Shown: positions 46,458 through 63,774 of the stretch, in pieces | Layout: each line of letters starts with the position of its first letter | Numbering within the stretch: the stretch's first letter is position 1 | From: an uncultured Azospirillum sp. | GTDB taxonomy: Bacteria > Pseudomonadota > Alphaproteobacteria > RF32 > CAG-239 | DNA: 64,000 nt | NCBI GenBank assembly: GCA_902489795.1 | Contig: CABUBU010000005.1 | Location: forward strand, 166-64,165 | Direction: 5' to 3' | The notes under the pieces: generated by a model | Database searches by the model: none | Seen by the model: the letters and a program-made list of their open reading frames with translations, nothing else | What the model was told of the DNA's origin: nothing | Program-made: the position numbers and the translations under genes

Positions 46458-46474
46458 TGCTTTTTTCTCCCGGA

Positions 46475-47641: not shown

Positions 47642-47737
47642 TTTTTCACCTTTCGTTTTAAAAAACCGACAAAATTTTCTCATACGATAAACCGTTTTTT
47701 TACACCCGTCACCTTAATTTTTCATAAACAAACAATT

Positions 47738-49075: not shown

Positions 49076-49250
49076 CGGCCGCTTCTCCCGCCGCGGCAAA
49101 CGCCGGTTCCGTCGGCGCGCCGTCGACGACACATGTCGCCGTTGCCGGCAGTTTCACATCGGTTGCAAACGAACCGAACGCCGCCAGAAATCCCGCAAAC
49201 ACAAAAACAAACTGCGCCGAACTGCCTGCGGCTTTTCCCTTGACCGTCAT
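49068..49250 (-). CDS. Possible small membrane peptide coupled to the MATE gene
   Basis: 60-codon ORF from ATG 49250 (AAGGAA upstream) with one hydrophobic helix (FVFVFAGFLAAFGSF). Its stop overlaps the MATE start by 8 nt. No family recognised. Confidence 0.3.
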   Translation of the reverse strand: MTVKGKAAGSSAQFVFVFAGFLAAFGSFATDVKLPATATCVVDGAPTEPAFAAAGEAADE

Positions 49251-49442
49251 TTTCCGTTCCTTAAAAAAACTTTTTCCAACCGGTGTTTTTTTAATGCGGA
49301 TTTTTTTAAATTTCAAATGCTTTTTTCACATTCGGCGACAAATGTTTCCGCCATTTTTCCCCAAAAAAACATACAGGAAAATCCGGCAACGGCACTCGTT
49401 GACTTTTCGGCATATCGTGATATAATAAAAAATGGAGAACAT

Positions 49443-50732
49443 ATGGTTGATTTGAATCGATTAAGAGGCGTCTCTGCACGCTCCGAACCGGAAGGCGACA
49501 TTTCCCCGTCACCGAAAAAAGCGGAATTAAAAGAAAAGATGGAAGCGCTTTCCGTTAGCATCCGCCGCAAAAAAGAGCGGAAAGAACAACCTCCTCCGAC
49601 AAACGGAGAAATGCCGGTTGCCGGCAAATACAATCTGACGCAGGACGAAGCGACCGTCGAAACGGCCTACAAAAATGGAAAAACCAAAACGACCGAAGAT
49701 ATTAAAGTCAGCCGCGTCACAGATACGGTGGAAGAAAACAAGACAGTCGTCAACACCACCGTTATTGCGGAAAAGAAAGAACTGCACCGGAACGGCAAAA
49801 CCGCCGCCGAACACTATTCTTCCAGCCATGTTTCGGAAAAATACAGAGACATCGGCAACAACACCCGCACGGAAACCTCCCGTAACGAAACAACGGAATT
49901 CGACCGCCGGGGACGGGCGAGGAAAATCGAAGAAACGCAAGACACGCAAACGACGTCCGAAGCGGACGCCCTTGACAGAACTCACGGATACGACGGCTCT
50001 CACAGCTGGGGAACTTCGCAAACAATAACTGTTGACTTGGACAAACAGGGACGGGAACGAATTTGGAACACGCACAACGAAAGTTTCGGACTGACCTCAT
50101 CCTTGTCTGACAGTCATACGGAAACCCGCCGCGGCTATGACATAAACGAAATCTCCCCGGAAACAAACAAAGGAATAAAAGAAACCACACAGGCAAGAGG
50201 AACCGCCGACAAAAGAAACCGACAAACAGTATCCGTCGATTCTTATCAATACGGCACAGACGGCAATTTAAAAAAGTCCTGGTGGGGCCGGTTAACCGAC
50301 GGCATAAAGGAAACCTACGGCAAAACAAAAGTTGGCAAAAAAACGACACAAACGGAAATCACCATTGAAAACGGCGAAATTACCGGACAAAGGACAATCA
50401 TCGACAAAAAAGACAACATAAAACGCAAAAAAATAAACAAGGGAATGGCCAAGCTCCGCCTGGCAGGCATACGCAGAAAAATCAACAACAGACTGAAAGA
50501 AACCGGCAACGTGGCGAACATGGAAGAGTATGCCGACAAAATTCCTGCCGTCGACCAAACGGCACGCGCCCCGCTCGGCCTCGCTTTCGATACCATTCCC
50601 GATCGGGAAAAATATGAAGAAAACAAACGGGAAGATCAGGCTCGCAACGATCAGTTGAGCGAGCGCGCCGACAAAATCACGGCAACCGACGTCATAAATA
50701 ATCTGATTCGGGAAAAATACATGAAGGAATAA
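49443..50732 (+). CDS. Hypothetical Thr/Lys/Glu/Arg-rich, probably disordered protein
   Basis: ATG at 49443 with GGAGA upstream. 429 aa, no signal peptide or TM helix, no recognisable domain. Confidence 0.5.
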   Translation: MVDLNRLRGVSARSEPEGDISPSPKKAELKEKMEALSVSIRRKKERKEQPPPTNGEMPVAGKYNLTQDEATVETAYKNGKTKTTEDIKVSRVTDTVEENKTVVNTTVIAEKKELHRNGKTAAEHYSSSHVSEKYRDIGNNTRTETSRNETTEFDRRGRARKIEETQDTQTTSEADALDRTHGYDGSHSWGTSQTITVDLDKQGRERIWNTHNESFGLTSSLSDSHTETRRGYDINEISPETNKGIKETTQARGTADKRNRQTVSVDSYQYGTDGNLKKSWWGRLTDGIKETYGKTKVGKKTTQTEITIENGEITGQRTIIDKKDNIKRKKINKGMAKLRLAGIRRKINNRLKETGNVANMEEYADKIPAVDQTARAPLGLAFDTIPDREKYEENKREDQARNDQLSERADKITATDVINNLIREKYMKE

Positions 50733-51064
50733 TCCGCCGCAAACGACGATTCACTCGGCTGCCGCCTCTTTTTCCGCCGTTTTGCCCGGTTTCCGCACGT
50801 TTTCCTTTGTTTCCTGTCGATATCTCCGGCCGCAGCACGCCGACAACTCCCGTTCAAAAGTTCCTTCCCGCACAAATTCCGAAATTGCCGACGGAGAATT
50901 AAATGCCCAACTCCTTTCTGTCTAAACGCTTTTCCTGATCCGTCCGACCTTCTCCGCGCCGTTTTTCCTATCCCCGTCCGTTTTCCGTACAAATACACAG
51001 ACCTTTACCCAAACAGAAAACTCTTACGCCTTCTGCCAGACAAACGACCCGTTTCCGCCGGCGC

Positions 51065-51623
51065 GGCAAAGCCGACCTGACGGTCGTCCAAAGCAGTTTT
51101 ATCGGCAAGTACACCTCCGTCAATCAACAGGGAACGTCAAACTACGGCGGGGCAATTTACGGCAACGAAAAACAAACGTCAGTCAGACGCTGTTTGAAGG
51201 CAACCACGCGACCCAAACCGGCGGCTCGCTCATAACCGTCGACCCCAAATTTGAATTTCGCTATGTGCACGGACAATCCAAAAACTTCAAAACCGACAAC
51301 GGCGAAATCGGCTCCATCGATTCCACCAGTTCGCTCGTCAGCAGATTTAACCTGCAGACTTCCTACCTGCCGGAAGAGCGAACCTCAAACCGGAAACTGT
51401 TTCTGGAACTAAGACTGTACAACGAATGGATCAGCCGCACCAAAGTCAAATTTGCCGACACGCACCTCACCACTTCCGACTTAAACGGCCTCGGGTTTGA
51501 CGCGTCACTCAGGTTCAACGCCGCCGTTGCCGAAGACGCCTATTGCTGCGGCGCCGTCACCCTGGAAGCCGGTGAACCTATACCTCATACCAGTTGAACG
51601 CCGGCCTGCGGGTCAGCTTCTGA
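51065..51623 (+). pseudogene. Remnant of a Pmp-like autotransporter (frameshifted, internally deleted)
   Basis: Three frames read successively SSFIGKYTS...NYGGAIYGNE, then TLFEGNHATQTGGS...KLFLELRLYNEW...GFDASLRFNAAV, then YTSYQLNAGLRVSF-stop. The first two carry GGAI and FxxN passenger motifs. The third is a terminal beta-barrel signature ending in Phe. Confidence 0.65.
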
Positions 51624-51754: not shown

Positions 51755-54472
51755 ATGAACGATACGCAACGAACGATTGAACAGGCACTTTCCTTGCGCG
51801 CCCCGCAAAAGGAAAGCCTCGACATTCTGGTACAAATTTTAAACAAAATCGTCTTAAGCAAAGAGATGTCCGCCGACGAAGCGCTGTGCCTGATTCGGGA
51901 AGTCTGCCCTTCCGTCAAAGACTTCGAACATGCCTTTCCCTGCATTTGCTTCGCCATCGCCACCGGCGTGGGCAAAACCCGGCTGATGGGCGCAATGATC
52001 GCCTATCTGCACGCGGAAAAAGGCATAAAAAATTTCATGGTTCTGGCACCCAACCTGACAATCTACAACAAGCTCAAAACCGACTTCACGCCCAATACCG
52101 AAAAATATGTTTTTCCCGGGTTGAAAGCGCTGGTTGACGTTCCGCAAATCATCACCGGCGACGATTATCATCAGGTCGGCGGTTTGTTTGACAATCCGAA
52201 CGACAACCGTGTCCGCATCAACATTTTCAATATTTCCAAGATCGATTCCGACAAAGACGCACGCGGCATGCCGCGCGTCCGCCGAATGGCCGAATATCTG
52301 GGACAGTCTTATTTCGACTATCTTTCCGGTTTAAAGGATTTGGTTTTGATTATGGACGAAGCGCACCGTTACCGTGCCAATGCCGGTATGGCCGCCGTCA
52401 ATGAACTGCACCCGTTTTTGGGAATTGAACTGACGGCCACCGCCAAATCGACCGGCGCCAAAGGCAAGCCTTTCCGCAACATTGCCTATGAATACAATCT
52501 GGCGCACGCCATTTGCGACGGTTACGTCAAAAAACCGGCAGTCGTCGGCCGCCTGGATTTTAACTGCGACCTGTACGGAAGCGGCAATTCCGAAGCGTTG
52601 GAAAATCTGAAAATCAAAGACGGCATCAAAGTACACGAAAGCATCAAGGCGGAATTGCAGGTTTATGCCGACAACAAAAAAAACAAAACGGTCAAACCTT
52701 TTATGATGATTGTCGCCCAGAACATTGATCATGCGGAACGCATTGAGGCAAAAATAAAAAGCGACGATTTTGAAGACGGCCGCTATAAAGACAAGGTCAT
52801 CGTCGTCAACTCCAAACAAAACGGCGAACTGAAAGACGAAGTCCTGCAACGGCTGCTGGCAATCGAAAACGCCGATGAACCGACCGAAATCGTTATCCAT
52901 GTCAATATGCTGGGCGAAGGCTGGGACGTCAACAACCTTTATACTATTGTACCGCTTCGTGCCGCCGATTCCAAAATTCTGGTTGAACAGACGATCGGCC
53001 GCGGTCTGCGTCTGCCGTTCGGAAAACGAACCGGCGTTGACGTCATCGACCGCCTGCATGTGATTGCGCACGACAAATTTGCGGACATCATCAATGCCGC
53101 TCAGGCGGAGCAATTCGAGTTTCAGCGGGAATATATCGACAACACGGACAGCGGCCTGACGGGAAAAAAGGCGGAAGACAACACCAGTAAACTGGACGAC
53201 GAAGTGAAAAACGGTCATATCGTCGTCACCCGGCCGACACCGGACAAACAGGGTAAACTGCCGGTTTTTGACAACGACGTCAATAAACAGATCGGCGACA
53301 TCGTGCGCGAAGCAATTAACGAAACCAGCCGCTACGCCCTGACCGCCGAAAATCTGTTAACGCCGGATAATCAAAACAGGATTGTCGAAATCGCAACCGA
53401 AAAAATCAAGGAAATCCGGTTGGAAAATTCCGAACTGTCGCTTGAACCGCTGGTTGACGTCAAAGAAACGGCCAAGCGCTATACGGAAAGCTTCATCAAA
53501 CTGAACATTTCCGTCCCGCGGATAAAAATTCTGTACGAACAGGAAGGCGATTTTACTTTTGACGATTTTGACATCGACACCGCGGATTTTGCCGGTTATC
53601 AGCCTTTGCGACCAACAGTTATCATCGGAGAACTGATGGATAAAGGCAAACAGGACGAAATAAAGGCCGAATTTGTCGACTGCCATTCGGACATCACGCA
53701 CTACCTGCTGGTACCGCTGATCGAAGACCCGGCCATCTCATACCAGAAAAACGCCGACTTGCTGTATAAGCTGATTCATCAGGTGATTGATTACATCACT
53801 TCCTATTCCGGCAGCGAACTGAACACCCGGAAGATTCTGTACTTCCACGGTGAAAAACTGGCGCAGAAAATCTGCACGCAGATAAAAGCCCATCTGCGGG
53901 AAGCGCCGATGACCAAACGCGTCAAAATAGACAGCGGGTATGCCGCGGTCACTTCCGCCTCTTACAAAATCAGCACAACGGAAGGACAGGATGCGCTGGA
54001 TATACATGCTTTCGTCCGCGACAAGGAAAAAATCCGCAATTTGGTCTTTACCGGTTTCAACAAATGCCTGTTTGCCAAACAAAAATTCGATTCCAACACC
54101 GAAAAGGAACTGGCGGAAATTCTGGAACGCACGCCGGCCGTGCAAAAATGGTTCAAAATCAACAATGACCGCGCCGGAGAAATTTTTGACATCAAATATT
54201 CGGACGACGATCGACAAATGCACCGTTACTTGCCGGATTTCATCGTTGAAACCGTTGACGCCAAATATATGATCGAAACCAAAGCGGCAAATCAGATGAG
54301 TGACAAGGTCGTGCAGGCCAAAAAAGAAGCCGCCGTCGACTGGTGCAAAATCGCCACCGGTTTTGAACGGGAGCATCACGGCAAACCCTGGCACTACCTG
54401 TTGATCCCCGACACGACCATTGTTGCCGACCGCGGCTTTGACAAACTCGTCAACGATTTTGAGGAAGATTAA
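51755..54472 (+). CDS. res: Type III-like restriction endonuclease/helicase subunit (Res)
   Basis: 905 aa. SF2 helicase motifs I (IATGVGKT), II (IMDEAHRY) and VI (QTIGRGLRL). C-terminal PD-(D/E)xK nuclease motif (YLPDFIVET...YMIETK). Confidence 0.88.
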   Translation: MNDTQRTIEQALSLRAPQKESLDILVQILNKIVLSKEMSADEALCLIREVCPSVKDFEHAFPCICFAIATGVGKTRLMGAMIAYLHAEKGIKNFMVLAPNLTIYNKLKTDFTPNTEKYVFPGLKALVDVPQIITGDDYHQVGGLFDNPNDNRVRINIFNISKIDSDKDARGMPRVRRMAEYLGQSYFDYLSGLKDLVLIMDEAHRYRANAGMAAVNELHPFLGIELTATAKSTGAKGKPFRNIAYEYNLAHAICDGYVKKPAVVGRLDFNCDLYGSGNSEALENLKIKDGIKVHESIKAELQVYADNKKNKTVKPFMMIVAQNIDHAERIEAKIKSDDFEDGRYKDKVIVVNSKQNGELKDEVLQRLLAIENADEPTEIVIHVNMLGEGWDVNNLYTIVPLRAADSKILVEQTIGRGLRLPFGKRTGVDVIDRLHVIAHDKFADIINAAQAEQFEFQREYIDNTDSGLTGKKAEDNTSKLDDEVKNGHIVVTRPTPDKQGKLPVFDNDVNKQIGDIVREAINETSRYALTAENLLTPDNQNRIVEIATEKIKEIRLENSELSLEPLVDVKETAKRYTESFIKLNISVPRIKILYEQEGDFTFDDFDIDTADFAGYQPLRPTVIIGELMDKGKQDEIKAEFVDCHSDITHYLLVPLIEDPAISYQKNADLLYKLIHQVIDYITSYSGSELNTRKILYFHGEKLAQKICTQIKAHLREAPMTKRVKIDSGYAAVTSASYKISTTEGQDALDIHAFVRDKEKIRNLVFTGFNKCLFAKQKFDSNTEKELAEILERTPAVQKWFKINNDRAGEIFDIKYSDDDRQMHRYLPDFIVETVDAKYMIETKAANQMSDKVVQAKKEAAVDWCKIATGFEREHHGKPWHYLLIPDTTIVADRGFDKLVNDFEED

Positions 54473-54561
54473 TGTAAAATATTTCATACACAGCAGTGTC
54501 AAGCAACATTGACATTTCGCATAAAATGTCGTATATTTACATTATATCGAGGAGCACGACA

Positions 54562-55335
54562 ATGACAAATGTTTTAAGAAGCCTGAGAGAACAAAAAGGC
54601 ATCTCTCAGGAAGAGTTAGCGTCTGAATTAAAAATAAGCCGTCAGACCCTGAGCAAATACGAAAACGAAGAAACTAAATTTTCTTTAGACATCATAAAAA
54701 AACTGGCCAGATTTTTTGATGTCGATTACTCATGCTTCATCGACAACAAAATGCCGCCGGAAACAACCTATAACATTATAGGAAACACGCCCAAAGAAAA
54801 CAAGACCGATATCCGCATCAACATTCCGCAGGAAAATATCAACAAATTCAAACAGGTTCTGCTTTATATCCTTAACAAAGTCGGCGCCAAACCGAATGTC
54901 GGGCAAACGGTAATTTACAAGCTTCTTTACTTCATAGATTTCGATTATTACGAAATATACGAAGAACAGCTGATGGGACTGAAATATATCAAAAATACAT
55001 ACGGCCCGACGCCGGTTGATTTTGCCAAATTAATAAAACAGATGGAAGACGACGGTTCTTTGGAAGAAATAAAAACCAAATATTTCAACCATGACCAAAC
55101 CAAATATCTTCCCCGCATACAACCGGATTTGTCCCTGCTTTCCGGACAGGAGCTGGCGCATATCGACAAAGAACTGGAACGCCTTGCCGGCCGGACGGGA
55201 AAAGAACTGTCGGAATTCTCGCATAAGGACATTCCGTGGATCGGCGCGGAAATGAACGAGGTTTTGGAGTACGAGGCCGTTTTTTACAGAACCCCGGAAA
55301 CTTCTGTTCGGGAGTATGACGAAGCAGATGATTAA
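54562..55335 (+). CDS. XRE-HTH plus Panacea (DUF4065/SocA-like) domain antitoxin
   Basis: ATG at 54562 with GGAG 8 nt upstream. HTH LREQKGISQEELASELKISRQTLSKYE. C-terminal domain with IYKLLYFIDFDYYEIYEEQLMGLKYIKNTYGPTPVDF, typical of DUF4065. Confidence 0.8.
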   Translation: MTNVLRSLREQKGISQEELASELKISRQTLSKYENEETKFSLDIIKKLARFFDVDYSCFIDNKMPPETTYNIIGNTPKENKTDIRINIPQENINKFKQVLLYILNKVGAKPNVGQTVIYKLLYFIDFDYYEIYEEQLMGLKYIKNTYGPTPVDFAKLIKQMEDDGSLEEIKTKYFNHDQTKYLPRIQPDLSLLSGQELAHIDKELERLAGRTGKELSEFSHKDIPWIGAEMNEVLEYEAVFYRTPETSVREYDEADD

Positions 55336-55699
55336 CTACGTAACTGTTCCCGAGTTTGACAAGGATTTCAAAACCGTGTCAAAAAAATTCCGAACTTTGG
55401 AAAAAGATTTCGGACATATGAAAAAATACACGATAGAAACGTTTTACGAAAAAGGTGTCCCGACAACGGCGTTTGTCCCCATTGAAGGTTTTTGTGGAGA
55501 AAACTATACTTCCAACAAAATGCGCAAGTTTTCCTGCCAGTCGTTAAAAGGCAGAGGTTCGGCATCGGGTATCAGGGTTATTTTCATCTGGGAAGAAGAA
55601 ACGCGAAAAATAACTTTTATCGAAATCTATTTTAAGGCAGATCAAGCCAACGAAAACAAAGAACGCCTGCAAAAATTTATAAAAGAAAATTTCGGATAG
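55316..55699 (+). CDS. RelE/ParE-superfamily-like toxin (putative)
   Basis: 127 aa (or 123 from ATG 55328). Overlaps the antitoxin stop by 20 or 8 nt. The C-terminal block GIRVIFIWEEETRKITFIEIYFK resembles the R-hh-Y...I-x-h-h-x-h core of RelE/ParE toxins (motif memory). Confidence 0.55.
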   Translation: MTKQMINYVTVPEFDKDFKTVSKKFRTLEKDFGHMKKYTIETFYEKGVPTTAFVPIEGFCGENYTSNKMRKFSCQSLKGRGSASGIRVIFIWEEETRKITFIEIYFKADQANENKERLQKFIKENFG

Positions 55700-55710
55700 G
55701 ATAATTCAAT

Positions 55711-56469
55711 ATGTATTGTTACTTGTTCTATGAGTTCTATACTCCGACACAAACATCTCATTCAATTTACAACTGGTGGAAAGATATCTGGTTGCCGGCG
55801 GCCGGTGCAATAGCAATTCCATTACTGGTTTGGTGGTTAAGTTGGCTTTTTGGAGCAAGCCGTGCTGAACAACAAAAGGAATTGAGAGATTTGAGAAATA
55901 ATCTTAATTTGCTTTCATCTATACTACTATCAACCTTTCAATCTCTGCTGTCATTAAAAGAAAATTTTGAAAACTGTCAAAAAATATATCCGTTAAAAAT
56001 TACTCCTTATGATAAAATAAATAAAATTGACAAATGTTTATTCATTGATTTTCCAATACTGAATAATATTGATATTTCTAAATACTCCCCTTGTATAAAT
56101 GCATATGGTAATTTTGTTATCGACTTAGTGAATATTAAACAAGGTTGTCGCATATTAAACGAAATGATTTTGCACAGAAATGAAGTGTTAAAATCAATCG
56201 GTTCCTGTGAGGATGAGCACATGAAAAAACTCAGAATTTTTGATTTTATTGCCGAAGATTCTGAAAATAATATTTCTAATCTGATGAGAACGAACAAACT
56301 AATACTGGAAATAAAAGAACTGGTTGATAAAATAAATATTTTAAAAACAAAAATAAAAGGCCTAAACTTAGAAGAAGTAACATTTGATGAAAACTCTTTA
56401 CAGCAATTTAAAAATATAAAATTAGAAATTGAGAAATTTATTCAAGATACAAAGGAACCAAATAAATGA
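55711..56469 (+). CDS. Orphan single-pass membrane protein translationally coupled to mod
   Basis: 252 aa, very AT-rich. One TM helix (WLPAAGAIAIPLLVWWLSWLF) followed by a helical/coiled Asn/Lys/Ile/Leu-rich domain. The stop overlaps the mod ATG (ATGA at 56466-56469). No family recognised. Confidence 0.65.
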   Translation: MYCYLFYEFYTPTQTSHSIYNWWKDIWLPAAGAIAIPLLVWWLSWLFGASRAEQQKELRDLRNNLNLLSSILLSTFQSLLSLKENFENCQKIYPLKITPYDKINKIDKCLFIDFPILNNIDISKYSPCINAYGNFVIDLVNIKQGCRILNEMILHRNEVLKSIGSCEDEHMKKLRIFDFIAEDSENNISNLMRTNKLILEIKELVDKINILKTKIKGLNLEEVTFDENSLQQFKNIKLEIEKFIQDTKEPNK

Positions 56470-58787
56470 CTGAAAAATTGCAGAGACTGGAACTGACATG
56501 GCCGGGGAAGGAAGACCGATTTAACCCGGAACCGCGGATACTGCTGGAAGACAAGGGAAAGTCCTATTCCAAACCTGTAATTTCTTCCCCTTTGCGTGAA
56601 AAAGAACGCTCTTCCGCCATTTCCTCCCCCTTGAGGAGGGAGGATAAAGGAGAGGGTGAACAACCCAGTTTCCTTCCTTTAAGTAGCAAAGAATGCTCTT
56701 CCGTCATTTCCTCCCCCTTGAGGGGGGAGGATAAAGGAGAGGGTGAACAACCCAGTTTCCTTCCTTTAAGTAGCAAAGAATGCTCTTCCGTCATTTCCTC
56801 CCCCTTGAGGGGGGAGGATAAAGGAGAGGGTGAACAACCTAACCTCCTTTCTTTAGCAAAAAAAATGAGGCATAATCCGACAGAAGCCGAAAATAAAATG
56901 TGGCAAATTCTGCGTAACAATCAATTAGGTTATAAAATACGACGTCAACATCAGATAGGCCAATACATAGTTGATTTTATATGTTTGGAAAAAAAATTAA
57001 TTATTGAATGCGATGGCGGCCAACATAATGAAACCGTCGACAAGGAAAGAACACTTTTTTTGGAAAATGAAGGCTTTAGAGTTATTCGTTTTTGGAATAA
57101 TGAAATATTAAATAATATAGAAGGATGTTGGGAGATAATTCAAAAAAGCCTGAATGATTGTACCCCTCACCCTAACCCTCTCCCCCAAGGGGCGAGGAAT
57201 TCCATTGTCCTTGAAACCTCTCCCTTGAGGGAAGAAGGCGACACTTTAGTGTCGAGCGAGGGTGATAAGTTAAATCTACTTAAGACGAAGAGAATTCAAC
57301 CGACTTTCGACAATATGCTGATCCACGGCGACAACCTGCTGGCCTTGAAAGCCCTGGAGCAGGACTATACCGGTAAAATCAAATGTATTTACATAGATCC
57401 GCCGTACAATACAGGTAACGCTTTCGAACATTATGACGACGGACTGGAACACTCCATCTGGCTTTCGCTGATGAGAGACAGATTGGAGATTTTGAGAAGA
57501 TTATTAAGTAATGACGGAGGCAGTATTTGGATTTCCATTGATGCGGACGAAAGTCATTACCTGAAAGTCCTTTGTGATGAAATTTTTGGCCGTCAATGTT
57601 TTGTTGATGAAGTTATCTGGCAACGAGCCTTTGCTCCTGTAAATTTAAAGAAAACGCTTTCACGTTCTCACGATACAATTTTAGTATATTGCAAAAATCC
57701 TATTAATTTTATCTTAAATACATTACCAAGAAGTGATAAACAATGTGAAAATTATAAAAATCCAGACAATGACCCCAGAGGTGCATGGACATCGGCAGAT
57801 TGTACTGTGGGACCTGTAGTTGAAGAAAAACTCTATGAAATAATAACTCCTGGGGGACGTTCTGTATTTCCTCCCGAAGGACGTTGTTGGTTATTTTCTA
57901 AAGATAGATTTGAAGAAGTGGTAGCAGATAATCGTATATGGTTTGGAAAAAATGGCAATAATGCACCTCGTGTAAAAAAATTTATATCAGAAGTCAAAGG
58001 CGGGGTTGTTGCGACAACGCTCTGGACCCGTGATGAATGTGGGGATAATCAGGAAGCTAAAAGAGAAATCAAGGCTTTATTTCCTGATGAAAAAAATCCG
58101 TTCGATACACCTAAACCCGAACGTTTAATTCAAAGAATCTTAACATTAGCATCCAACCCCGGCGATCTTGTTTTAGACAGCTTTTTAGGTTCAGGAACGA
58201 CTGCCGCCGTAGCGCAAAAAATGGGACGTCGCTGGATTGGGGTGGAAATGGGCGACCATGTTTACACACATTGCATTCCCCGCCTGAAAAAAGTAATCGA
58301 CGGCGAAGATCAGGGCGGCATCACCAAAACCGTCAACTGGCAGGGCGGCGGCGGTTTCAAATTCTATGAACTGGCTTCTTCCCTGATCGTGACCGACAAA
58401 TACGGCCAGCAGATCATTTCCAAAGAATACAACGCCGACATGCTGGCCGAAGCCATGTGCAAAATCTTAGGCTATCACTATAAACCGGATAAGGAAATTT
58501 ACTGGAAACAGGGCTTTTCTTCCGAAAAGAACTTTATCTATACCACCACCATGAGCTTGCAGGAAAGTTCGCTTGACCGCCTCGCCGAAGAAATCGGCGA
58601 CAACAACCTGCTGATTTGTTGCAGCGCCTTTGTCGGCAACAGCAGGATATATCCTAACATCTCGGTCAAAAAAATTCCCGCCGCTATCCTCAAAAAATGC
58701 GAATGGGGCCGCGAAGGCTACCCCCTCAACCTCCGCAACTACCACCCAACCGACGAAGAATTTGAATTCGAGGAGGAAGAGGAATAA
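56466..58787 (+). CDS. mod: Type III-like N6-adenine/N4-cytosine DNA methyltransferase (Mod) with an in-frame DUF559 endonuclease-domain insertion
   Basis: N-terminus LELTWPGKEDRFNPEPRILLED, motif IV IYIDPPYNTGN, motif I DSFLGSGTTAAVAQ (beta-class order). Residues ~35-265 are repeats plus a DUF559/Vsr-like domain (MWQILRNNQLGYKIRRQHQIGQYIVDFICLEKKLIIECDGGQH...RVIRFWNNEIL). Confidence 0.88.
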   Translation: MTEKLQRLELTWPGKEDRFNPEPRILLEDKGKSYSKPVISSPLREKERSSAISSPLRREDKGEGEQPSFLPLSSKECSSVISSPLRGEDKGEGEQPSFLPLSSKECSSVISSPLRGEDKGEGEQPNLLSLAKKMRHNPTEAENKMWQILRNNQLGYKIRRQHQIGQYIVDFICLEKKLIIECDGGQHNETVDKERTLFLENEGFRVIRFWNNEILNNIEGCWEIIQKSLNDCTPHPNPLPQGARNSIVLETSPLREEGDTLVSSEGDKLNLLKTKRIQPTFDNMLIHGDNLLALKALEQDYTGKIKCIYIDPPYNTGNAFEHYDDGLEHSIWLSLMRDRLEILRRLLSNDGGSIWISIDADESHYLKVLCDEIFGRQCFVDEVIWQRAFAPVNLKKTLSRSHDTILVYCKNPINFILNTLPRSDKQCENYKNPDNDPRGAWTSADCTVGPVVEEKLYEIITPGGRSVFPPEGRCWLFSKDRFEEVVADNRIWFGKNGNNAPRVKKFISEVKGGVVATTLWTRDECGDNQEAKREIKALFPDEKNPFDTPKPERLIQRILTLASNPGDLVLDSFLGSGTTAAVAQKMGRRWIGVEMGDHVYTHCIPRLKKVIDGEDQGGITKTVNWQGGGGFKFYELASSLIVTDKYGQQIISKEYNADMLAEAMCKILGYHYKPDKEIYWKQGFSSEKNFIYTTTMSLQESSLDRLAEEIGDNNLLICCSAFVGNSRIYPNISVKKIPAAILKKCEWGREGYPLNLRNYHPTDEEFEFEEEEE
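56565..57265 (+). other. In-frame insertion module inside mod: hairpin repeats - DUF559 domain - hairpin repeats
   Basis: DUF559 domain at ~56865-57160. Left flank: 87-bp tandem repeats, each with the hairpin CCTCCCCC-TTGA-GGGGGAGG. Right flank: hairpins CCTCTCCCCCAAGGGGCGAGG, CTCTCCCTTGAGGGAAGAAG and CGACACTTTAGTGTCG. The mod sequence resumes at ...FDNMLIHGDNLLALKAL. Confidence 0.7.
56578..56860 (+). repeat. ~3.2 copies of an 87-bp (29-codon) tandem repeat
   Basis: AGGATAAAGGAGAGGGTGAACAACC starts at 56641, 56728 and 56815 (period exactly 87), with a diverged partial copy at 56578-56640. The array is open in frame on both strands. Confidence 0.9.
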
Positions 58788-58810
58788 CAAATTCCGCACG
58801 CTCCCCTTTC

Positions 58811-58841
58811 AGGCATGACCACCCTTGTCATGCCTTTTTTA
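58811..58841 (+). terminator. Intrinsic terminator of mod
   Basis: AGGCATGAC-CACCCTT-GTCATGCCTTTTTT, located 24 nt after the mod stop. Confidence 0.8.
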
Positions 58842-58903
58842 TCTCCTCCTCGTCTGCCATACCTTTTCTTTTATCTCATCTTTCCTGCATTTTCTGTCTT
58901 CCT

Positions 58904-59640
58904 GTCATGCCTCCGACGGGCAAAAAGCCCGGCGGATCAGGCATCTTTTGCCCCTCCGGTCATCACCTTTGTTCAGGCATCTTTTGAAAAAGGAAAAACA
59001 TTGTATAATCCCTAAACTCGCTCGCTCACGCTCCCTCGCGGGATGACAGTCTGAAGAGGGTTCACGCTCCCTCGCGGGATGACAACCTCAAATTGTCATG
59101 CCTCCGACGGGCGAAAAGCCCGGCGGATCAGGCATCTTTTGCCCCTCCGGTCATCACCTTTGTTCAGGCATCTTTTGAAAAAGGAAAAACATTGTATAAT
59201 CCCTAAACTCGGTCGCTCACGCTCCCTCGCGGGATGACAACCTCAAATTGCCATGCCTCCGACGGGCAAAAAGCCCGGCGGATCAGGCATCTTTTGCCCT
59301 TCTGTTACTCCCTTTGAACAGGCTCCTCCTGAAAAAGGAAAAAACATTGTAAGATCCCTAAACTCGGTCGCTCACGCTCCCTCGCGGGATGACAACTTCA
59401 AATTGTCATGCCTCCGACAGGCGAAAAGCCCGGCGGATCAGGCATCTTTTGCCCCTCCGGTCATCACCTTTGTTCAGGCATCTTTTAAAAAAGGAAAAAC
59501 ATTGTAAGATCCCTAAACTCGGTCGCTCCCACTCCCTCGCGGGATGACAGTCTGAAGAGGGTTCACGCTCCCTCGCGGGATGACAGTCTGAAGAGGGTTC
59601 ACGCTCCCTCGCGGCAGAATGACGGCTTGGAGTATCTGCT
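58904..59640. repeat. Four tandem copies of a 155-191-bp unit with nested 36-bp sub-repeats
   Basis: Units start at 58904, 59095, 59250 and 59405 with G(T/C)CATGCCTCCGAC(G/A)GGC(A/G)AAAAGCCCGGCGGATCAGGCATCTTTTGCCC. Each ends in one to three copies of TCACGCTCCCTCGCGGGATGACAGTCTGAAGAGGGT. There are no unique spacers. Confidence 0.92.
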
Positions 59641-59728
59641 CGCAGGACGGCGTTTTTTTTCAATAAAGGCTCATGATTTCAGGAACGTTTCACTCGCAGG
59701 CCGACAGATAAACAAGAAGCGAAAAAAC

Positions 59729-60007
59729 TCAAAATAATCGTTCGTACAAATCAGACCACTCAGGGTTGTTTTCTTCTATCAATCTTATCTTCACTTTCCG
59801 AAACGCTTTTTTCAAAAACTTTTCCCGGGCAATAGCCTCATTTTCGCCAACAATCTCCTCAAAATAAACCAGCCGGATCAGATTATAACGCTTGGTAAAC
59901 CCTTCAAACAGCTTGTTCCTGTGCTCATAAACCCTTCTCGTCAGGTCTTTTGTCACTCCGACATACAGCGTTCCGCCTTTTTTGTTACTCATAATGTAAA
60001 CGTACAT
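59729..60007 (-). CDS. Small GIY-YIG nuclease family protein (COG2827/UPF0213-like)
   Basis: 92 aa: MYVYIMSNKKGGTLYVGVTKDLTRRVYEH...LVYFE...AIAREKFLK. The ATG shares one nucleotide with the SNF2 stop (TGATG at 60005-60009). Confidence 0.85.
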   Translation of the reverse strand: MYVYIMSNKKGGTLYVGVTKDLTRRVYEHRNKLFEGFTKRYNLIRLVYFEEIVGENEAIAREKFLKKAFRKVKIRLIEENNPEWSDLYERLF

Positions 60008-62898
60008 CAGCTTTTTACTTCCCAGGTAACATCAAACACCTGTTCAATGGTGTAATCCAATTTCAGACTGCGCTTTTTGCCGCCGATGAGGCGGTTGCAC
60101 TTCTTTTCCAGCTCACGCTCAATGTCAAAAGTATTGAACTCGTTATCGTTCATTTCTTTTTGCAGACGTTTGATTTCTTCATCCAAAGCCAGTTTTTTTG
60201 CAAAATCTTTCTCCAACTTAAACTGGCGTTTCAGATTGCCGATCTTATTTTTCATCTTTTCGCCTTTCAGATGAATGGCCTGTTTTTCATCCGCCAACCA
60301 GCGAGTAAGCTTGTCTACCTCAATTTTTAACAAAACATCGACCCGGTGCTTTTCGGATTTCTCATATTCGGCAATATTCCTTTCGTGCAGCCGCCGAATC
60401 AAATCCTGATACCCCATCTCAACCGGCGCAGCCGTTTTCCGCACATTATCAAAAATGTCTTCCGGTTTCAAATTTAACGCTTCGCCGTGATCGTCAATAA
60501 CTGCCGACAACAGACGAAAAGACTTTTCCGGCGCATTTTGCCTGAACAAAGACAAAATCAGCCGCCCGCGTTGTCCGGATTTTAACTTGTCTCCCGCCTT
60601 CAACAACAAATGGCACGCCTCGACCGGCTGCGCCAGCGCCTCCCGTAAAATAATCCGCCCGAACTCACTGTCCGGATTGTACGGCGTAGCTCCCCGCCAA
60701 ACGGCTTTGCGATCCTGCGGAGAAAGAAAACGATTATTGTCGCGGCTTGAAAAATCCAGACAGAAATTGAAATTCTTATTGAAAACAATGTCCGACGGCC
60801 GGTCAAAAACCTGTTCTTCAAAAGGGCCGAACACCTGCCGCGCCGGATTGATAAACATATCAGGATGATTTTTTTCCAGCATGATAACCGACAAATCCCA
60901 GAAAATTTGCTTGCGGCGTTCCAAATAATCTTCAACCCTCCGCTTGATGACCTGCAGTTTTTCCTGTGTGGTCGGGTTCAGGTTTTCCAGAACCAACTGG
61001 CGCGTTTCTTCCATTTTGGCATCACGCTTCACGCCAAGGCTTGCCTGTAATTCGTCAAAAGCACGGTTAATTTCCTCGGTTGTCCGGCACAATTCAAATA
61101 TGGAGGCCACCGCACGCTCAAAATCCACGCCGTCGGACAATGTGCCCAAAATTTCGTCGCTGGCACCGAATACATCGTCAAACAATTTAAATTTATATTG
61201 CAAAATATCATAAAGGCGCACATCGGCAAGATTCTGTTTGTTGATAAAATTGATGATTACAACATCGCATTTTTGCTTATAACGATGAATACGCCCGATT
61301 CTCTGTTCTATTCTTTGCGGATTCCACGGCAAATCGTAATTGACCAGCAGCGAACAAAACTGCAAATTCAGCCCCTCGGCCGCCGCCTCGGTGGCAATCA
61401 TGATTTCCGCCTCTTCCCTGAAAGCCGCAACCAGAGCTTTTTTCATATCGTTGGCTCGCGAACCGGTCAGCTCCGCCGAGTGATTTTCGACAAAATCGTT
61501 GTAAATCCGATTGCAAAGCGGGGAATTGTTCTGACCGTTAAAGGTGATGATTTTATCCTTAAAACCGTGAGCCGAAAGATAATCGAAAAGATAATTCAAA
61601 GTCCGGTTGCTTTCCGTAAAAATAATTACCTTGCGCAAACCTCCCTTTTCCCTGATTTTTTCAAATCCCCGGTTGATCGCGCCGACAAGCTTTTCCGTCT
61701 TGCCGTCAACTTCGATTTTACCCGCCTTGTCAATCAACGACTGCAAAAATTCCTTTTCGGCTTTAAGGTCAGCATCCGTCGGATAATTCTTAGCATAAGC
61801 GTTGCGGCAGCGATCGTCAAAATCCGACAGGGAATCCTGATATTCTTCCAGCAAATCTTCATCAAACACAATAAGATCACCGGTGTTTCCGCCAAGTTTC
61901 TCAATACGGCACAGCCTTTCCATCAACTTTTCCAATGTTCCTTTGACCGCCGCGGTGGAGGAACTCATCAATTTGCGTATCATCAGAACAATCAGCGTAC
62001 GATAACGGGTGGTAACGGCAATCTTTGAAACATCCTGAATATAAGCCGAAACTTCCCGGTAAAGTTCTTCTTCCGCTGGAGTCGGATTAAACGCAACAGT
62101 CATTGCCTCGCGATTGGTATATTTAATATACTCCGAAACATCTTTGCGCAAAGTGCGATGCAAAACGCATTTTAAACGTTCTTTCAGCTCAATATGATGC
62201 CGTTCGGAATACAGGTAATTTTCCATAAAAGAATATTCATTGCCCAAAATATGCGGATCAATAATCGTTACCAGCGAAAAAATGTCCATCAGAGAATTTT
62301 GAATGGGCGTTGCCGTCAACAAAAGCTTTTTCTTACCGTAAAAAGCCTCATTAATCCCGTCAGCCGTTTTAGTCTTGCCTTTATAAAAATTACGGAGCTT
62401 ATGCGCTTCGTCCAAAACGACCAGATCCCAATCATGTTGTTTCATGCAATCTTTTAGCTGCACCGCACAATTATACGAACAAACCGTCACGCCTTTAAAC
62501 AACAGCGGATTTTCCTTTTCCGACTTCAAAGCCTTGCCATAAATCCCGGCCTCAATAACCCGGGTCGGCAAATTAAATTTTTCCTGCATTTCAGCCTGCC
62601 ATTGCTGGCAAAGACTTGCCGGCGCAACAACCAGAACGGAAGTTCGGCCGCGTGAAAAATATTCGGAAACGACGATACCTGCCTCAATCGTCTTTCCCAA
62701 ACCGACTTCATCGGCCAGAATAACACCTTGCGACAACGGGGATTTCAAGGCAAACAACGCCGCTTCGATTTGATGCGGATTCATATCAATTTTAGATGTT
62801 TCCAATGAACCGGAAATGTTTCCCATATCCGCCTGGTTATTGGAAGCTAAAACTTCCAAAGCCCAATATTTTGCTTTTATTTCTTCTGTCGTTATCAT
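60007..62898 (-). CDS. SNF2/RAD54-family helicase with ~350-aa uncharacterised C-terminal region
   Basis: 963 aa. Motifs I ADEVGLGKTIEAG, II LVVLDEAHKLRN, III LLLTATPIQNSL and VI QRIGRIHRYKQ. The C-terminal third has no recognised motif and ends in a coiled-coil-like Lys/Glu-rich segment. Confidence 0.9.
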   Translation of the reverse strand: MITTEEIKAKYWALEVLASNNQADMGNISGSLETSKIDMNPHQIEAALFALKSPLSQGVILADEVGLGKTIEAGIVVSEYFSRGRTSVLVVAPASLCQQWQAEMQEKFNLPTRVIEAGIYGKALKSEKENPLLFKGVTVCSYNCAVQLKDCMKQHDWDLVVLDEAHKLRNFYKGKTKTADGINEAFYGKKKLLLTATPIQNSLMDIFSLVTIIDPHILGNEYSFMENYLYSERHHIELKERLKCVLHRTLRKDVSEYIKYTNREAMTVAFNPTPAEEELYREVSAYIQDVSKIAVTTRYRTLIVLMIRKLMSSSTAAVKGTLEKLMERLCRIEKLGGNTGDLIVFDEDLLEEYQDSLSDFDDRCRNAYAKNYPTDADLKAEKEFLQSLIDKAGKIEVDGKTEKLVGAINRGFEKIREKGGLRKVIIFTESNRTLNYLFDYLSAHGFKDKIITFNGQNNSPLCNRIYNDFVENHSAELTGSRANDMKKALVAAFREEAEIMIATEAAAEGLNLQFCSLLVNYDLPWNPQRIEQRIGRIHRYKQKCDVVIINFINKQNLADVRLYDILQYKFKLFDDVFGASDEILGTLSDGVDFERAVASIFELCRTTEEINRAFDELQASLGVKRDAKMEETRQLVLENLNPTTQEKLQVIKRRVEDYLERRKQIFWDLSVIMLEKNHPDMFINPARQVFGPFEEQVFDRPSDIVFNKNFNFCLDFSSRDNNRFLSPQDRKAVWRGATPYNPDSEFGRIILREALAQPVEACHLLLKAGDKLKSGQRGRLILSLFRQNAPEKSFRLLSAVIDDHGEALNLKPEDIFDNVRKTAAPVEMGYQDLIRRLHERNIAEYEKSEKHRVDVLLKIEVDKLTRWLADEKQAIHLKGEKMKNKIGNLKRQFKLEKDFAKKLALDEEIKRLQKEMNDNEFNTFDIERELEKKCNRLIGGKKRSLKLDYTIEQVFDVTWEVKS

Positions 62899-63540: not shown

Positions 63541-63774
63541 TTAAAAACAATTTAACCAATAATAGCAAACTTGTTGCGGATACGGATTTAAAGGTGATGC
63601 ATTCAAAATGGGAACTATCGCGCCCTCATTTATCATGACAGAAATATTTAATGCTATTGGAGAAGCAAAACAATTATTGAATAAGAATGTTGAGGAGCAA
63701 AAATATTGCCGCCATAGTTCTTTTAATTCGTTAACACTCATATCTTTAAGAGAAGTCACTTCATTTTCAATCAT
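63541..63774 (-). CDS. Small hypothetical protein
   Basis: 77 codons; ATG 63774 preceded by AAAGGAG; coupled to the upstream small ORF. Only a weak resemblance of the N-terminus (MSVNELKELWRQYF) to DUF2924. Confidence 0.3.
   Translation of the reverse strand: MIENEVTSLKDMSVNELKELWRQYFCSSTFLFNNCFASPIALNISVMINEGAIVPILNASPLNPYPQQVCYYWLNCF

What the first reader, a model, noticed from the sequence alone, without database searches (positions are those of the whole stretch)
51755..62898. Composite ~11-kb defence island: a split Type III-like R-M operon carrying passenger genes, convergent with an SNF2 helicase / GIY-YIG pair
Seen in sequence: res (51755-54472) comes first, and the cognate-looking mod starts 2 kb later (56466). 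Between them sit an XRE-Panacea antitoxin, a RelE-like toxin, and an orphan single-pass membrane protein whose stop overlaps the mod ATG. The mod gene itself carries an in-frame DUF559 endonuclease domain. A 737-bp tandem array separates this block from a convergent SNF2 helicase whose stop overlaps a GIY-YIG nuclease gene. Much of the block is visibly more AT-rich than the backbone, and a decayed autotransporter lies at its left edge. Established: canonical Type III systems are adjacent mod-res pairs. Inference: this is either a stack of independent modules or one multi-gene system combining methylase, two helicases, up to three nuclease folds and a membrane component. I do not recognise it as any named system.
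Basis: partly seen in the sequence, partly recalled or inferred. Interest (0 to 1): 0.78.

Follow-up and report, generated by a model that had tools for sequence, protein, structure and literature searches.

The report
Type III restriction locus with SNF2 partner
This 11-kb block is one strain's version of a highly variable phage-defence locus in which a Type III restriction enzyme, its methylase and a recurring SNF2 motor protein form a fixed frame that holds swappable defence genes and selfish inserts.

Summary
Related loci from at least six species settle the "stack or single system" question: it is both.

**Frame.** Res, Mod and a convergent RapA/DrmD-like SNF2 ATPase are constant. All 37 SNF2-anchored loci in which both genes could be scored carry Mod and Res.

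**Wider reach.**
- Full-length SNF2 homologues sit beside 5 of 7 distant Res homologues.
- They also sit beside Type III Mod/Res on plasmids and chromosomes of Salmonella, E. coli, Cupriavidus, Aeromonas and a planctomycete.
- The usual form there is HTH-SNF2-Mod-Res.
- Three different Type III Mod/Res family pairs are involved.

**Cargo.** The genes between Res and Mod, and between Mod and SNF2, are interchangeable, even among strains with 99% identical SNF2. Two loci have none between Res and Mod.

**Selfish inserts.** The DUF559 domain is a recent in-frame insertion, absent from the nearest relatives. The GIY-YIG gene and the tandem array occur only in this haplotype.

**Status.** The locus is not DISARM, Hma or MADS. 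No searched library or paper names the triad. Embedding of defence genes inside modification-based systems is already published. The role of the SNF2 protein is inferred, not shown.

The parts
51032..51620 (+). Relic of a pertactin-like autotransporter gene. Two fragments survive, matching aa 229-292 and 922-1064 of the intact 1064-aa gene. It marks the left edge of the locus.
   Evidence: tblastn of the intact L003 protein gives 68-100% identity; blastn gives 91-93%.
51755..54472 (+). res. Type III-family restriction subunit (905 aa) with an SF2 ATPase (GVGKT, DEAH, TAT, QTIGRGLR) and a C-terminal PD-ExK nuclease. Frame gene 1.
   Evidence: Pfam ResIII 3e-22 and TnsA-like N. PADLOC REase_III PDLC03648 scores 579 bits. 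Motifs located. Only a distant match to EcoP15I Res (E 1e-4).
54509..54537 (+). Promoter-like site (TTGACA-17-TATATT) with a palindrome, GACATTT-N6-AAATGTC, in the spacer. It lies just ahead of the cargo cassette. Inferred to be an autoregulated promoter that also reads into mod.
   Evidence: 11 of 12 consensus matches. Sequence read directly; GAGGAG and the ATG at 54562 follow.
54562..55335 (+). XRE-HTH plus Panacea-domain antitoxin (257 aa; the longest ORF starts at GTG 54496). Embedded cargo.
   Evidence: HTH_3 8.5e-18 and SocA_Panacea 8e-15. Gene callers use the 257-aa start. Absent from L010, L013, L044, L070 and others.
55316..55699 (+). 127-aa candidate toxin, weakly HigB-2/RelE-like. 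Overlaps the antitoxin gene by 20 nt. Embedded cargo.
   Evidence: All five top PDB sequence hits are HigB-2, E 0.04. No Pfam, PADLOC or NCBIfam hit. Co-occurs with the Panacea gene in every locus that has either.
55711..56469 (+). 252-aa orphan protein with an N-terminal membrane helix and a helical bundle. Its stop overlaps the mod start (ATGA). The commonest occupant of the slot upstream of mod.
   Evidence: 13 homologue clusters only. AlphaFold pLDDT 83, all-helical. No PDB or viral fold match. Paralogues at 25-36% identity occupy the same position in conspecific strains. One homologue stands apart from any Type III R-M genes (L007).
56466..58787 (+). mod. Type III-family N6-adenine methylase (DPPY at aa 311, FLGSG at aa 573, variable target-recognition block between them, conserved acidic C-terminal tail). 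Frame gene 2.
   Evidence: N6_N4_Mtase 3e-46. PADLOC MTase_III PDLC03636 scores 641 bits. PDB Mod 6k0w 5e-46 and EcoP15I Mod 2.5e-33, using the insert-free allele of L009. Alignment.
56601..57275 (+). In-frame insertion of about 675 bp in mod. It is a DUF559 (Vsr-like endonuclease) cassette with its own ATG at 56866 and no stop. GC-rich imperfect inverted repeats flank it; the upstream 87-bp flank is tandemly repeated 2.7 times (56601-56839).
   Evidence: Absent from all six other Mod sequences aligned (L003, L009, L010, L011, L033, L034), while aa 1-45 and aa 271 onward align. DUF559 2.8e-35. TRF repeat. Repeat number differs between contigs, giving 744 or 773 aa.
58811..58835 (+). Terminator-like hairpin with a T-run, 24 nt after the mod stop.
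   Evidence: 9-bp stem followed by TTTTTAT.
58905..59614 (.). Tandem array of about four 155-bp units with 36-bp sub-repeats at both ends. Units carry terminator-like hairpins on the minus strand. Its length varies between strains.
   Evidence: TRF rows. Six copies of a 22-mer against 0 expected. Hairpins. The slot is 687-1225 bp long in W-type contigs, those sharing the window's haplotype.
59729..60007 (-). 92-aa stand-alone GIY-YIG nuclease gene. Haplotype-specific passenger.
   Evidence: GIY-YIG 3.9e-16. Present only in W, L001, L002, L004-6 and L072; a remnant in L003.
60007..62898 (-). SNF2 ATPase (963 aa). Intact motifs GLGKT, DEAH, TATP and QRIGRIHR, with a RapA-like C-terminal region. 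Convergent with mod. Frame gene 3.
   Evidence: SNF2-rel_dom 4e-35 and Helicase_C 1e-17. PADLOC DrmD PDLC02619 scores 629 bits over the core only. NCBIfam DrmD_b scores 632, below its cut-off of 950. RapA is the best PDB sequence hit. The C-terminal model matches RapA at E 8e-5. Constant linkage to Mod and Res.

Best explanation
The block is one haplotype of a hypervariable defence locus in an uncultured gut alphaproteobacterium (MAG 'Azospirillum sp. 51_20').

**The frame.** Three genes are conserved: res, a Type III-family SF2 ATPase with a PD-ExK nuclease; mod, a beta-class N6-adenine methylase with an exchangeable target-recognition block; and a RapA/DrmD-like SNF2 ATPase.

**How it most likely works (inferred).** Mod marks host sites. 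Mod-Res attacks unmarked DNA as Type III enzymes do. The SNF2 motor is a third, facultative but recurrent subunit or helper of this kind of R-M. It most plausibly acts as a dsDNA translocase or remodeller that clears or tracks along target DNA for Mod-Res, or that controls Mod-Res on host DNA.

**The cargo.** Two slots, Res-to-Mod and Mod-to-SNF2, accept self-contained cassettes by recombination between the conserved frame genes. Here the first slot holds an autoregulated XRE-Panacea antitoxin, a HigB-2-like toxin and an orphan membrane protein. All are read from their own promoter into mod. They are inferred to be independent abortive-infection or back-up layers.

**The inserts.** The DUF559 cassette in mod, the GIY-YIG gene and the tandem array are recent insertions of selfish or repeat DNA. 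They are not parts of the machine.
For: **Identity of the parts:**

**The frame is constant**
- Gene maps of 8 loci from at least 6 species all show Res, slot, Mod, slot, then a convergent SNF2.
- In 37 SNF2-anchored loci where both genes could be scored, Mod and Res are always present. The count includes seven contigs, the window among them, recovered through the 252-aa protein rather than through SNF2. Loci that end sooner beyond SNF2 show Mod alone or neither gene.

**The link reaches far**
- Of 7 Res homologues at 44-56% identity, 5 have a full-length SNF2 homologue (37-58%) next to them, in three gene orders. One is a compact SNF2-Mod-Res operon with gaps of 8 and 3 nt (L078).
- Annotated replicons of Salmonella, E. 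coli, Cupriavidus, a planctomycete and Aeromonas show HTH-SNF2-(cargo)-methylase-(cargo)-Res.
- Three different PADLOC Type III Mod/Res family pairs are partnered with this SNF2.
- SNF2 and Res identities to the window co-vary: r = 0.96 over 21 non-conspecific loci.

**The cargo is optional and swappable**
- Slot A is empty in L010 and L070.
- Among strains with 99% identical SNF2 it holds the toxin-antitoxin pair plus p252, a p252 paralogue alone, or the toxin-antitoxin pair alone.
- In relatives the second slot holds RelA_SpoT, ApeA_NTD1 or DUF4209 genes.
- Distant loci embed Bro-N, SLFN/AlbA_2, Abi_C, DUF3800, AIPR, an AAA ATPase with DUF4276, or DUF4258 with DUF2283.

**The inserts are recent:**

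**Promoter and terminator:**

**Precedents:** embedding of defence genes in Hma, BREX, DISARM and Type I R-M (bioRxiv 10.1101/2024.01.29.577857). The layout of a RapA-like SNF2, a methylase and a second helicase is seen in DISARM class I and ARMADA (PMC12458937).
Against: - No experiment or methylome was available, so activity of any gene is unproven.
- SNF2 is absent within 10 kb of 2 of the 7 distant Res homologues (L033, L036). It cannot be obligatory for the Res/Mod family.
- In the window SNF2 is convergent, not co-transcribed, and lacks the small HTH gene found upstream elsewhere.
- Most SNF2-anchored loci come from one clade of gut bacteria and are not independent samples.
- The correlation is inflated by shared ancestry.
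- The 225-residue insertion might inactivate Mod. If so, the locus could be decaying in this strain, as the neighbouring autotransporter relic might suggest.
- The p127 toxin assignment rests on E 0.04.
Confidence: 0.7

Rival explanations
1. A pure stack. SNF2 is an independent single-gene defence or housekeeping helicase that merely sits in the same defence island as an ordinary Type III R-M system. All linkage reflects co-transfer of an island.
For: SNF2 is convergent with res-mod in the window. Two of 7 distant Res homologues lack it. DrmD-like SNF2 helicases also join unrelated systems such as ietAS (PMC13069673). Stand-alone SNF2-nuclease defence exists (HmaA, PMC11232893).
Against: Linkage persists from 99% down to 37% identity, through three gene orders, across four phyla or classes, and with three different Mod/Res family pairs. 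Some operons are tightly packed, with 3-8 nt gaps. No full-length member of the SNF2 subfamily that was inspected lacked Mod and Res. This SNF2 has no nuclease domain of its own.
Confidence: 0.2
2. One obligate nine-gene machine. The methylase, two helicases, the toxin-antitoxin pair, the membrane protein, DUF559 and GIY-YIG all work together.
For: Start-stop overlaps suggest coupled translation: p252 with mod, and SNF2 with GIY-YIG. The genes share a low G+C content.
Against: Slot A is empty in L010 and L070. DUF559 is absent from L003, L009 and all other species. GIY-YIG is confined to one haplotype. The toxin-antitoxin pair and p252 occur without each other (L044, L051). A p252 homologue occurs without any Type III genes (L007).
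Confidence: 0.03
3. A degenerate or variant DISARM class I, ARMADA or Hma system.
For: The best profile for the SNF2 core is DrmD (629-632 bits). The layout of SNF2, a methylase and a second helicase matches those systems.
Against: The score is below the DrmD_b cut-off of 950 and covers only the helicase core. No DrmA/YprA, DUF1998, PLD, DUF499 or PglX-like genes are present in the locus or its relatives. The methylase and second helicase match Type III profiles at 580-1650 bits.
Confidence: 0.05

Closest known systems
Type III restriction-modification (EcoP15I/EcoP1I type)
   Same: The Mod is a beta-class N6-adenine methylase with a central target-recognition block. It matches PDB Mod 6k0w at 5e-46 and EcoP15I Mod at 2.5e-33. 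The Res is an SF2 ATPase with a C-terminal PD-ExK nuclease. PADLOC's Type III profiles match strongly.
   Different: Res is only distantly related to EcoP15I Res (E 1e-4). Gene order here is res first. Up to 3.6 kb of cargo separates the two genes. A third conserved gene, SNF2, accompanies them. From my own knowledge, the classical enzymes have no such partner.
DISARM class I and ARMADA (RapA/BrxHII-like SNF2, a methylase and a second helicase); PMC12458937
   Same: A RapA-like SNF2 ATPase is linked to an adenine methylase and to a second SF2 helicase in a modification-based defence locus. The SNF2 core is closest to the DrmD profiles.
   Different: The methylase is a Type III Mod, not PglX-like. 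The second helicase is a Type III Res with its own nuclease, not YprA/DrmA. There are no DUF1998, PLD or UvrD partners.
Hma / Type-1 BREX-related systems and 'guilt by embedding' (bioRxiv 10.1101/2024.01.29.577857; PMC12839542)
   Same: An SNF2 helicase and a methylase form a frame in which unrelated defence cassettes are nested in the same orientation. Cargo turns over between strains.
   Different: There is no DUF499 ATPase and no DUF1156 methylase. The SNF2 lacks the C-terminal nuclease of HmaA. Embedding was reported there for Hma, BREX, DISARM and Type I R-M, not for Type III.
PanAT toxin-antitoxin pairs (Panacea-domain antitoxins) and HigB-2/RelE toxins
   Same: An HTH plus Panacea antitoxin gene overlaps a small downstream gene with weak HigB-2 similarity. 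A palindrome sits in its promoter.
   Different: The toxin matches no family profile. The pair is nested inside an R-M operon and reads into mod.
MADS (methylation-associated defence system; bioRxiv 10.1101/2023.03.30.534895)
   Same: NCBI names the small HTH gene upstream of the E. coli homologue of this SNF2 as MAD1.
   Different: [quoted passage not shown] None of these is present, and no window protein hits a MADS model. The window also lacks that HTH gene.

Membership tests
Type III restriction-modification | Mod is an N6-adenine methylase with motif IV (DPPY) before motif I (FxGxG) and a target-recognition block between them. | tested here: met
   DPPY at aa 311 and FLGSG at aa 573. The variable block lies between them in the alignment. 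MTase_III scores 641 bits. Matches to solved Mod structures.
Type III restriction-modification | Res is an SF2 helicase-like ATPase fused to a PD-(D/E)xK nuclease. | tested here: met
   GVGKT, DEAH, TAT, QTIGRGLR and PDF...ETK motifs. REase_III scores 579 bits. Similarity to EcoP15I Res is weak.
Type III restriction-modification | mod and res are adjacent in one operon, mod first. | tested here: not met
   In the window res comes first and 2 kb of cargo lies between the two genes. They are adjacent in L010 and L070 but still res first. Distant relatives are mod first.
Type III restriction-modification | Hemi-methylation of an asymmetric site; cleavage needs two inversely oriented unmodified sites and ATP. 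| not testable with these tools
   Needs methylome data and biochemistry.
DISARM class I | A DrmD SNF2 helicase that reaches the family threshold. | tested here: not met
   NF038318 scores 632 bits against a cut-off of 950, and only profile positions 23-653 of 868 are matched.
DISARM class I | DrmA (YprA-type helicase), DrmB (DUF1998) and optionally DrmC (PLD) in the operon. | tested here: not met
   No such domains in any gene of the window block or of the sister and related loci.
Hma / Type-1 BREX-related | A DUF499 ATPase (HmaC) and a DUF1156-type methylase (HmaB) together with an SNF2 nuclease (HmaA). | tested here: not met
   HmaA scores only 191 bits against 629 for DrmD. No HmaB or HmaC hit appears among the families listed for Mod (top 25 of 66) or Res (all 9).
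MADS | MAD6, MAD7 and MAD8 are mandatory; the system also has a kinase and a specificity subunit. | tested here: not met
   No MADS model is hit in NCBIfam. The definition comes from the preprint. The MAD1-like HTH is absent from the window.
Panacea (PanA) toxin-antitoxin | An antitoxin carrying the Panacea domain. | tested here: met
   SocA_Panacea 8.3e-15 at aa 141-248, with HTH_3 at the N-terminus.
Panacea (PanA) toxin-antitoxin | An adjacent cognate toxin that the antitoxin neutralises. | tested here: inconclusive
   An overlapping 127-aa gene always accompanies the antitoxin gene. Its only similarity is to HigB-2 at E 0.04. Toxicity and neutralisation were not tested.
Embedded defence cargo ('guilt by embedding') | Variable genes nested between the genes of one multi-gene system, in the same orientation, differing between otherwise similar loci. 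| tested here: met
   37 cargo clusters were found across the two slots. All slot A cargo is co-oriented with res and mod. Contents differ among strains with 99% identical SNF2.

The most novel reading that the evidence does not exclude
HTH-SNF2-Mod-Res is an unrecognised, widespread four-gene restriction system. It is found in Alpha-, Beta- and Gammaproteobacteria, in Planctomycetes, and on enterobacterial plasmids. In it a RapA-like SNF2 motor is a working subunit of a Type III enzyme, needed for restriction or for sparing host DNA. On this reading its inter-gene slots are hot spots that hold new defence genes, of which the p252 membrane-protein family is one.
Probability: 0.35. Interest if true: 0.75.

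Novelty: new variant of a known kind. Interest (0 to 1): 0.55.

Why it matters
Type III enzymes are textbook two-subunit machines. A third conserved motor protein would change how their long-range communication, or their control on host DNA, is understood. Here the partner is linked to three different Mod/Res family pairs.

It would also tie Type III R-M to the growing group of SNF2-plus-methylase systems (DISARM, ARMADA, BREX type 3, Hma), in most of which the role of the SNF2 protein is still unknown.

The locus extends 'embedding' of defence genes to Type III R-M. It therefore supplies a short list of candidate new defence genes: the p252 family and several unannotated cargo families.

Tractable homologues exist in E. 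coli and on Salmonella plasmids, so the idea can be tested directly.

Tried and rejected
- **DUS/USS uptake sequences** to place the organism: none found. The organism came from the genome scan instead.
- **megablast of the island against plasmids:** only a 43-bp methylase hit.
- **Homologue search with the SNF2 C-terminus:** returned only fragments. It was useful only as an alignment for structure prediction.
- **p252:** no hit in Pfam, even at E 5, or in PADLOC, NCBIfam or PHROGs. There was no fold match in PDB or viral libraries despite a confident model. A profile of 21 paralogues found it in none of the distant triad loci, so it is not part of the wider system.
- **p127:** no family hit. 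Only HigB-2 at E 0.04.
- **DUF4391:** a weak hit in the SNF2 C-terminus (E 0.006) was followed through the literature and dropped. The fold match is to RapA.
- **Rfam on 49-64 kb:** nothing, so the array is not a known RNA and not a CRISPR array.
- **ORFs upstream of SNF2 (62.9-64 kb):** no HTH and no similarity to the MAD1-like HTH of other loci.
- **MADS, suggested by an NCBI gene name:** rejected on gene content.
- **DISARM and Hma:** rejected on missing partners and a sub-threshold score.
- **Literature:** searches for a named SNF2 plus Type III system found none. The library lacks most subscription journals, so this is not proof of absence.
Full report

Yes. The ORF list reproduces every coordinate.

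- **Res (905 aa).** It has ResIII and Helicase_C domains and a C-terminal TnsA-like PD-ExK motif. It scores 579 bits on a PADLOC Type III restriction profile.
- **XRE-Panacea gene.** The next gene is an XRE-HTH plus Panacea protein. Its likely start is 54562. This lies behind a near-consensus promoter-like site at 54509-54537 with a palindrome in the spacer.
- **127-aa gene.** It overlaps the Panacea gene by 20 nt and matches no family. Its only similarity is to the RelE-superfamily toxin HigB-2 (E 0.04, all five top hits).
- **252-aa protein.** It matches nothing. It has one hydrophobic helix and its stop overlaps the mod start as ATGA.
- **Mod (773 aa).** It carries DUF559 in frame ahead of a Type III-class methylase (641 bits).
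- **Downstream of mod.** A terminator-like hairpin follows mod. Then comes an array of about 710 bp made of 155-bp and 36-bp units.
- **Minus strand.** A 963-aa SNF2 ATPase ends in TGATG, overlapping a 92-aa GIY-YIG gene.
- **Composition and left edge.** G+C drops to 31-44% over 54-58 kb. At 51032-51620 lie two fragments of an autotransporter gene that is intact in a sister contig.

**2. Where the window comes from**

Exact look-up of the 252-aa protein finds the window's own metagenomic contig and sister contigs. A scan of reference genomes places it in the MAG 'Azospirillum sp. 51_20', an uncultured gut alphaproteobacterium.

**3. Frame and cargo**

Gene maps of eight loci from at least six species (SNF2 68-99% identical) all read Res, slot A, Mod, slot B, then a convergent SNF2. 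A metagenome scan with the SNF2 C-terminal alignment added 39 loci. In all 37 SNF2-anchored loci where both genes could be scored, Mod and Res are present. Loci that end sooner beyond SNF2 show Mod alone or neither gene.

The slots are not constant.

- **Slot A** is the stretch between res and mod. It is empty in L010 (48 bp) and L070 (19 bp). Among strains whose SNF2 is 99% identical it holds one of the following:
  - the toxin-antitoxin pair plus p252;
  - a p252 paralogue alone, at 25-36% identity;
  - the toxin-antitoxin pair alone;
  - other genes.
- **Other species** add Bro-N genes and two further small families to slot A, or carry two p252 paralogues in tandem.
- **Slot B** holds different genes in different loci. 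These include a RelA_SpoT protein, an ApeA-like protein, a DUF4209 protein and several unannotated families. Only in the window's haplotype does it hold the array and GIY-YIG.
- **Mod itself** exists in several alleles (69-100% identity) among strains with 99% identical SNF2. The differences lie in the block between motifs IV and I.

The locus is therefore a conserved three-gene frame with exchangeable cargo and exchangeable Mod specificity.

**4. The inserts**

Mod aa 1-45 and aa 271 onward align with all relatives. The 225 residues between them are found only in the window's haplotype.

The insert is a DUF559 gene with its own ATG and no stop. GC-rich imperfect inverted repeats flank it, and the upstream 87-bp flank is repeated 2.7 times. 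Sister contigs have one repeat fewer, giving 744 aa. It looks like a mobile cassette that landed in frame in a variable linker.

GIY-YIG is present only in this haplotype and is a remnant in L003. The SNF2/GIY-YIG 'pair' is therefore not a conserved unit.

**5. Does SNF2 belong with the R-M genes?**

The Res family is very large; the search hit its ceiling of 8000 clusters. I sampled seven members at 44-56% identity.

| Locus | Res identity | Arrangement |
|---|---|---|
| L076 | 56% | Mod, a 368-aa gene, Res, an AAA_13 gene, then a convergent SNF2 |
| L034 | 50% | Mod, a SLFN/AlbA_2 gene, Res, then a convergent SNF2 |
| L035 | 44% | SNF2, DUF3800, Abi_C, Mod, Res, Mod |
| L077 | 44% | SNF2, three genes, Mod, Res |
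| L078 | 44% | Compact SNF2-Mod-Res with gaps of 8 and 3 nt |
| L033 | 53% | No SNF2 within 10 kb |
| L036 | 44% | No SNF2 within 10 kb |

In the five linked loci the SNF2 is a full-length homologue at 37-58% identity, C-terminus included.

A protein search of annotated plasmids found 18 records with a full-length match. Every locus inspected reads HTH, SNF2, optional cargo, methylase, optional cargo, Res:

- a Salmonella IncFIB plasmid, with IS256 and Abi embedded;
- E. coli and Klebsiella IncF plasmids;
- a Cupriavidus plasmid, which is compact;
- a planctomycete plasmid;
- an Aeromonas plasmid, with an AAA ATPase and DUF4276 embedded;
- E. coli chromosomes, with Abi and AIPR embedded.

The Mod/Res partners in these loci belong to three different PADLOC Type III family pairs. 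SNF2 and Res identities to the window co-vary at r = 0.96 over 21 non-conspecific loci. This figure is not corrected for phylogeny.

Taken together, this is strong evidence of selection for linkage. It is not proof of joint function.

**6. What the SNF2 is**

All helicase motifs are intact. The closest solved protein is E. coli RapA. A model of the last 324 residues (pLDDT 74) matches the RapA C-terminal region at E 8e-5.

The core scores best on DrmD profiles but falls below the NCBIfam cut-off, and the match stops at the end of the helicase core. The C-terminal profile finds 412 clusters at 50% identity in 1.84 billion representative proteins. The full-length hits are typically 940-1000 aa, so this is a family of moderate size.

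**7. How it most likely works**

*Shown.* The domain content, intact motifs, gene overlaps, promoter-like and terminator-like sites, conserved linkage and cargo turnover.

*Inferred.*
- Mod methylates one strand of an asymmetric site. Mod-Res restricts unmarked DNA.
- The SNF2 motor assists or controls this. It could strip proteins from incoming DNA, track along it, or remove enzyme from host sites.
- The XRE-Panacea protein represses its own promoter and neutralises the HigB-2-like toxin.
- Transcription from that promoter continues through p252 into mod.
- The cargo acts as independent back-up defence.

None of these steps has been tested.

**8. Comparison with known systems**

The Mod and Res meet the sequence criteria of Type III R-M. 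The operon layout does not.

- **DISARM class I, ARMADA and Hma** share the layout of a RapA-like SNF2, a methylase and a second helicase. Their defining partners are absent: YprA/DUF1998/PLD, the PglX-like methylase and the DUF499 ATPase.
- **MADS** was suggested by NCBI's name for the HTH gene in the E. coli homologue. It is excluded by gene content.
- **Embedding** of defence genes is published for Hma, BREX, DISARM and Type I R-M. This locus extends it to Type III.

I found no paper or profile library that names the SNF2 plus Type III triad. The paper library is incomplete.

**9. Verdict**

The locus is a new variant of a known kind. Interest is moderate to good, mainly for two reasons. 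One is the recurrent, untested SNF2 partner of Type III enzymes, with testable E. coli and Salmonella homologues. The other is the cargo families.

Noticed in passing
window 56601-57275: A DUF559 gene with its own ATG (56866) and no stop codon is inserted in frame in mod. GC-rich imperfect inverted repeats flank it. The 87-bp upstream flank varies in copy number between strains, giving Mod of 744 or 773 aa. It looks like a mobile cassette that can be read through.
   Followed up: partly
window 58905-59614: The tandem array varies in length between otherwise near-identical contigs: the slot is 687-1225 bp. Units carry terminator-like hairpins on the minus strand. No Rfam family matches.
   Followed up: partly
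window 54509-54562: A near-consensus promoter-like site with the palindrome GACATTT-N6-AAATGTC in its spacer sits just before the Panacea gene. A mirror-image promoter-like site lies on the minus strand at 54568-54541.
   Followed up: no
window 63541-63774 (minus strand): A 77-aa ORF has a weak N-terminal DUF2924 fragment (E 0.009). DUF2924 genes sit next to large serine recombinases beside the homologous triad in L076, and also in L007. This may be a relic of the element that delivered the locus.
   Followed up: no
window 49317-50732 (plus strand): A 429-471-aa lysine-, glutamate- and threonine-rich protein hits no family. The region has an AT skew of up to 0.51. It lies between the MatE gene and the autotransporter relic.
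   Followed up: no
window 46457-49243 (plus strand): A 928-aa ORF is a shadow of the MatE and RND membrane-fusion genes, which the gene callers place on the minus strand. It is not a gene.
   Followed up: yes
L007 10001-10693: The only p252 homologue outside the Type III frame stands alone beside a Hachiman-like HamA-helicase pair and an EcoO109I-type R-M system in a Hadza gut contig. This fits p252 being a self-contained defence-island gene.
   Followed up: partly
L009 12957-14012 and L010 12963-14030: In relatives the slot between Mod and SNF2 holds a 351-355-aa RelA_SpoT-domain protein. From my own knowledge its size and domain recall fused toxSAS defence proteins such as CapRel. L013 holds an ApeA-like gene there.
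   Followed up: no
L081 3001-3201 (E. coli APEC E16002): NCBI annotates the small HTH gene upstream of the SNF2 homologue as MADS protein MAD1, although no other MADS gene is present. The name is likely to mislead users of that annotation.
   Followed up: yes
L079 (E. coli plasmid pEC316_2, NZ_CP018955, 29496-39248): On IncF plasmids of E. coli and Klebsiella the HTH-SNF2-methylase-Res operon lies a few kilobases from ssb, psiB and psiA, with two IS transposase genes between. That is close to the plasmid leading region.
   Followed up: no
L001 20004-20631 (beyond the right end of the window): The rtcB gene to the right of the locus is split into fragments of 58 and 131 aa in all sister contigs. 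It is a probable pseudogene.
   Followed up: no
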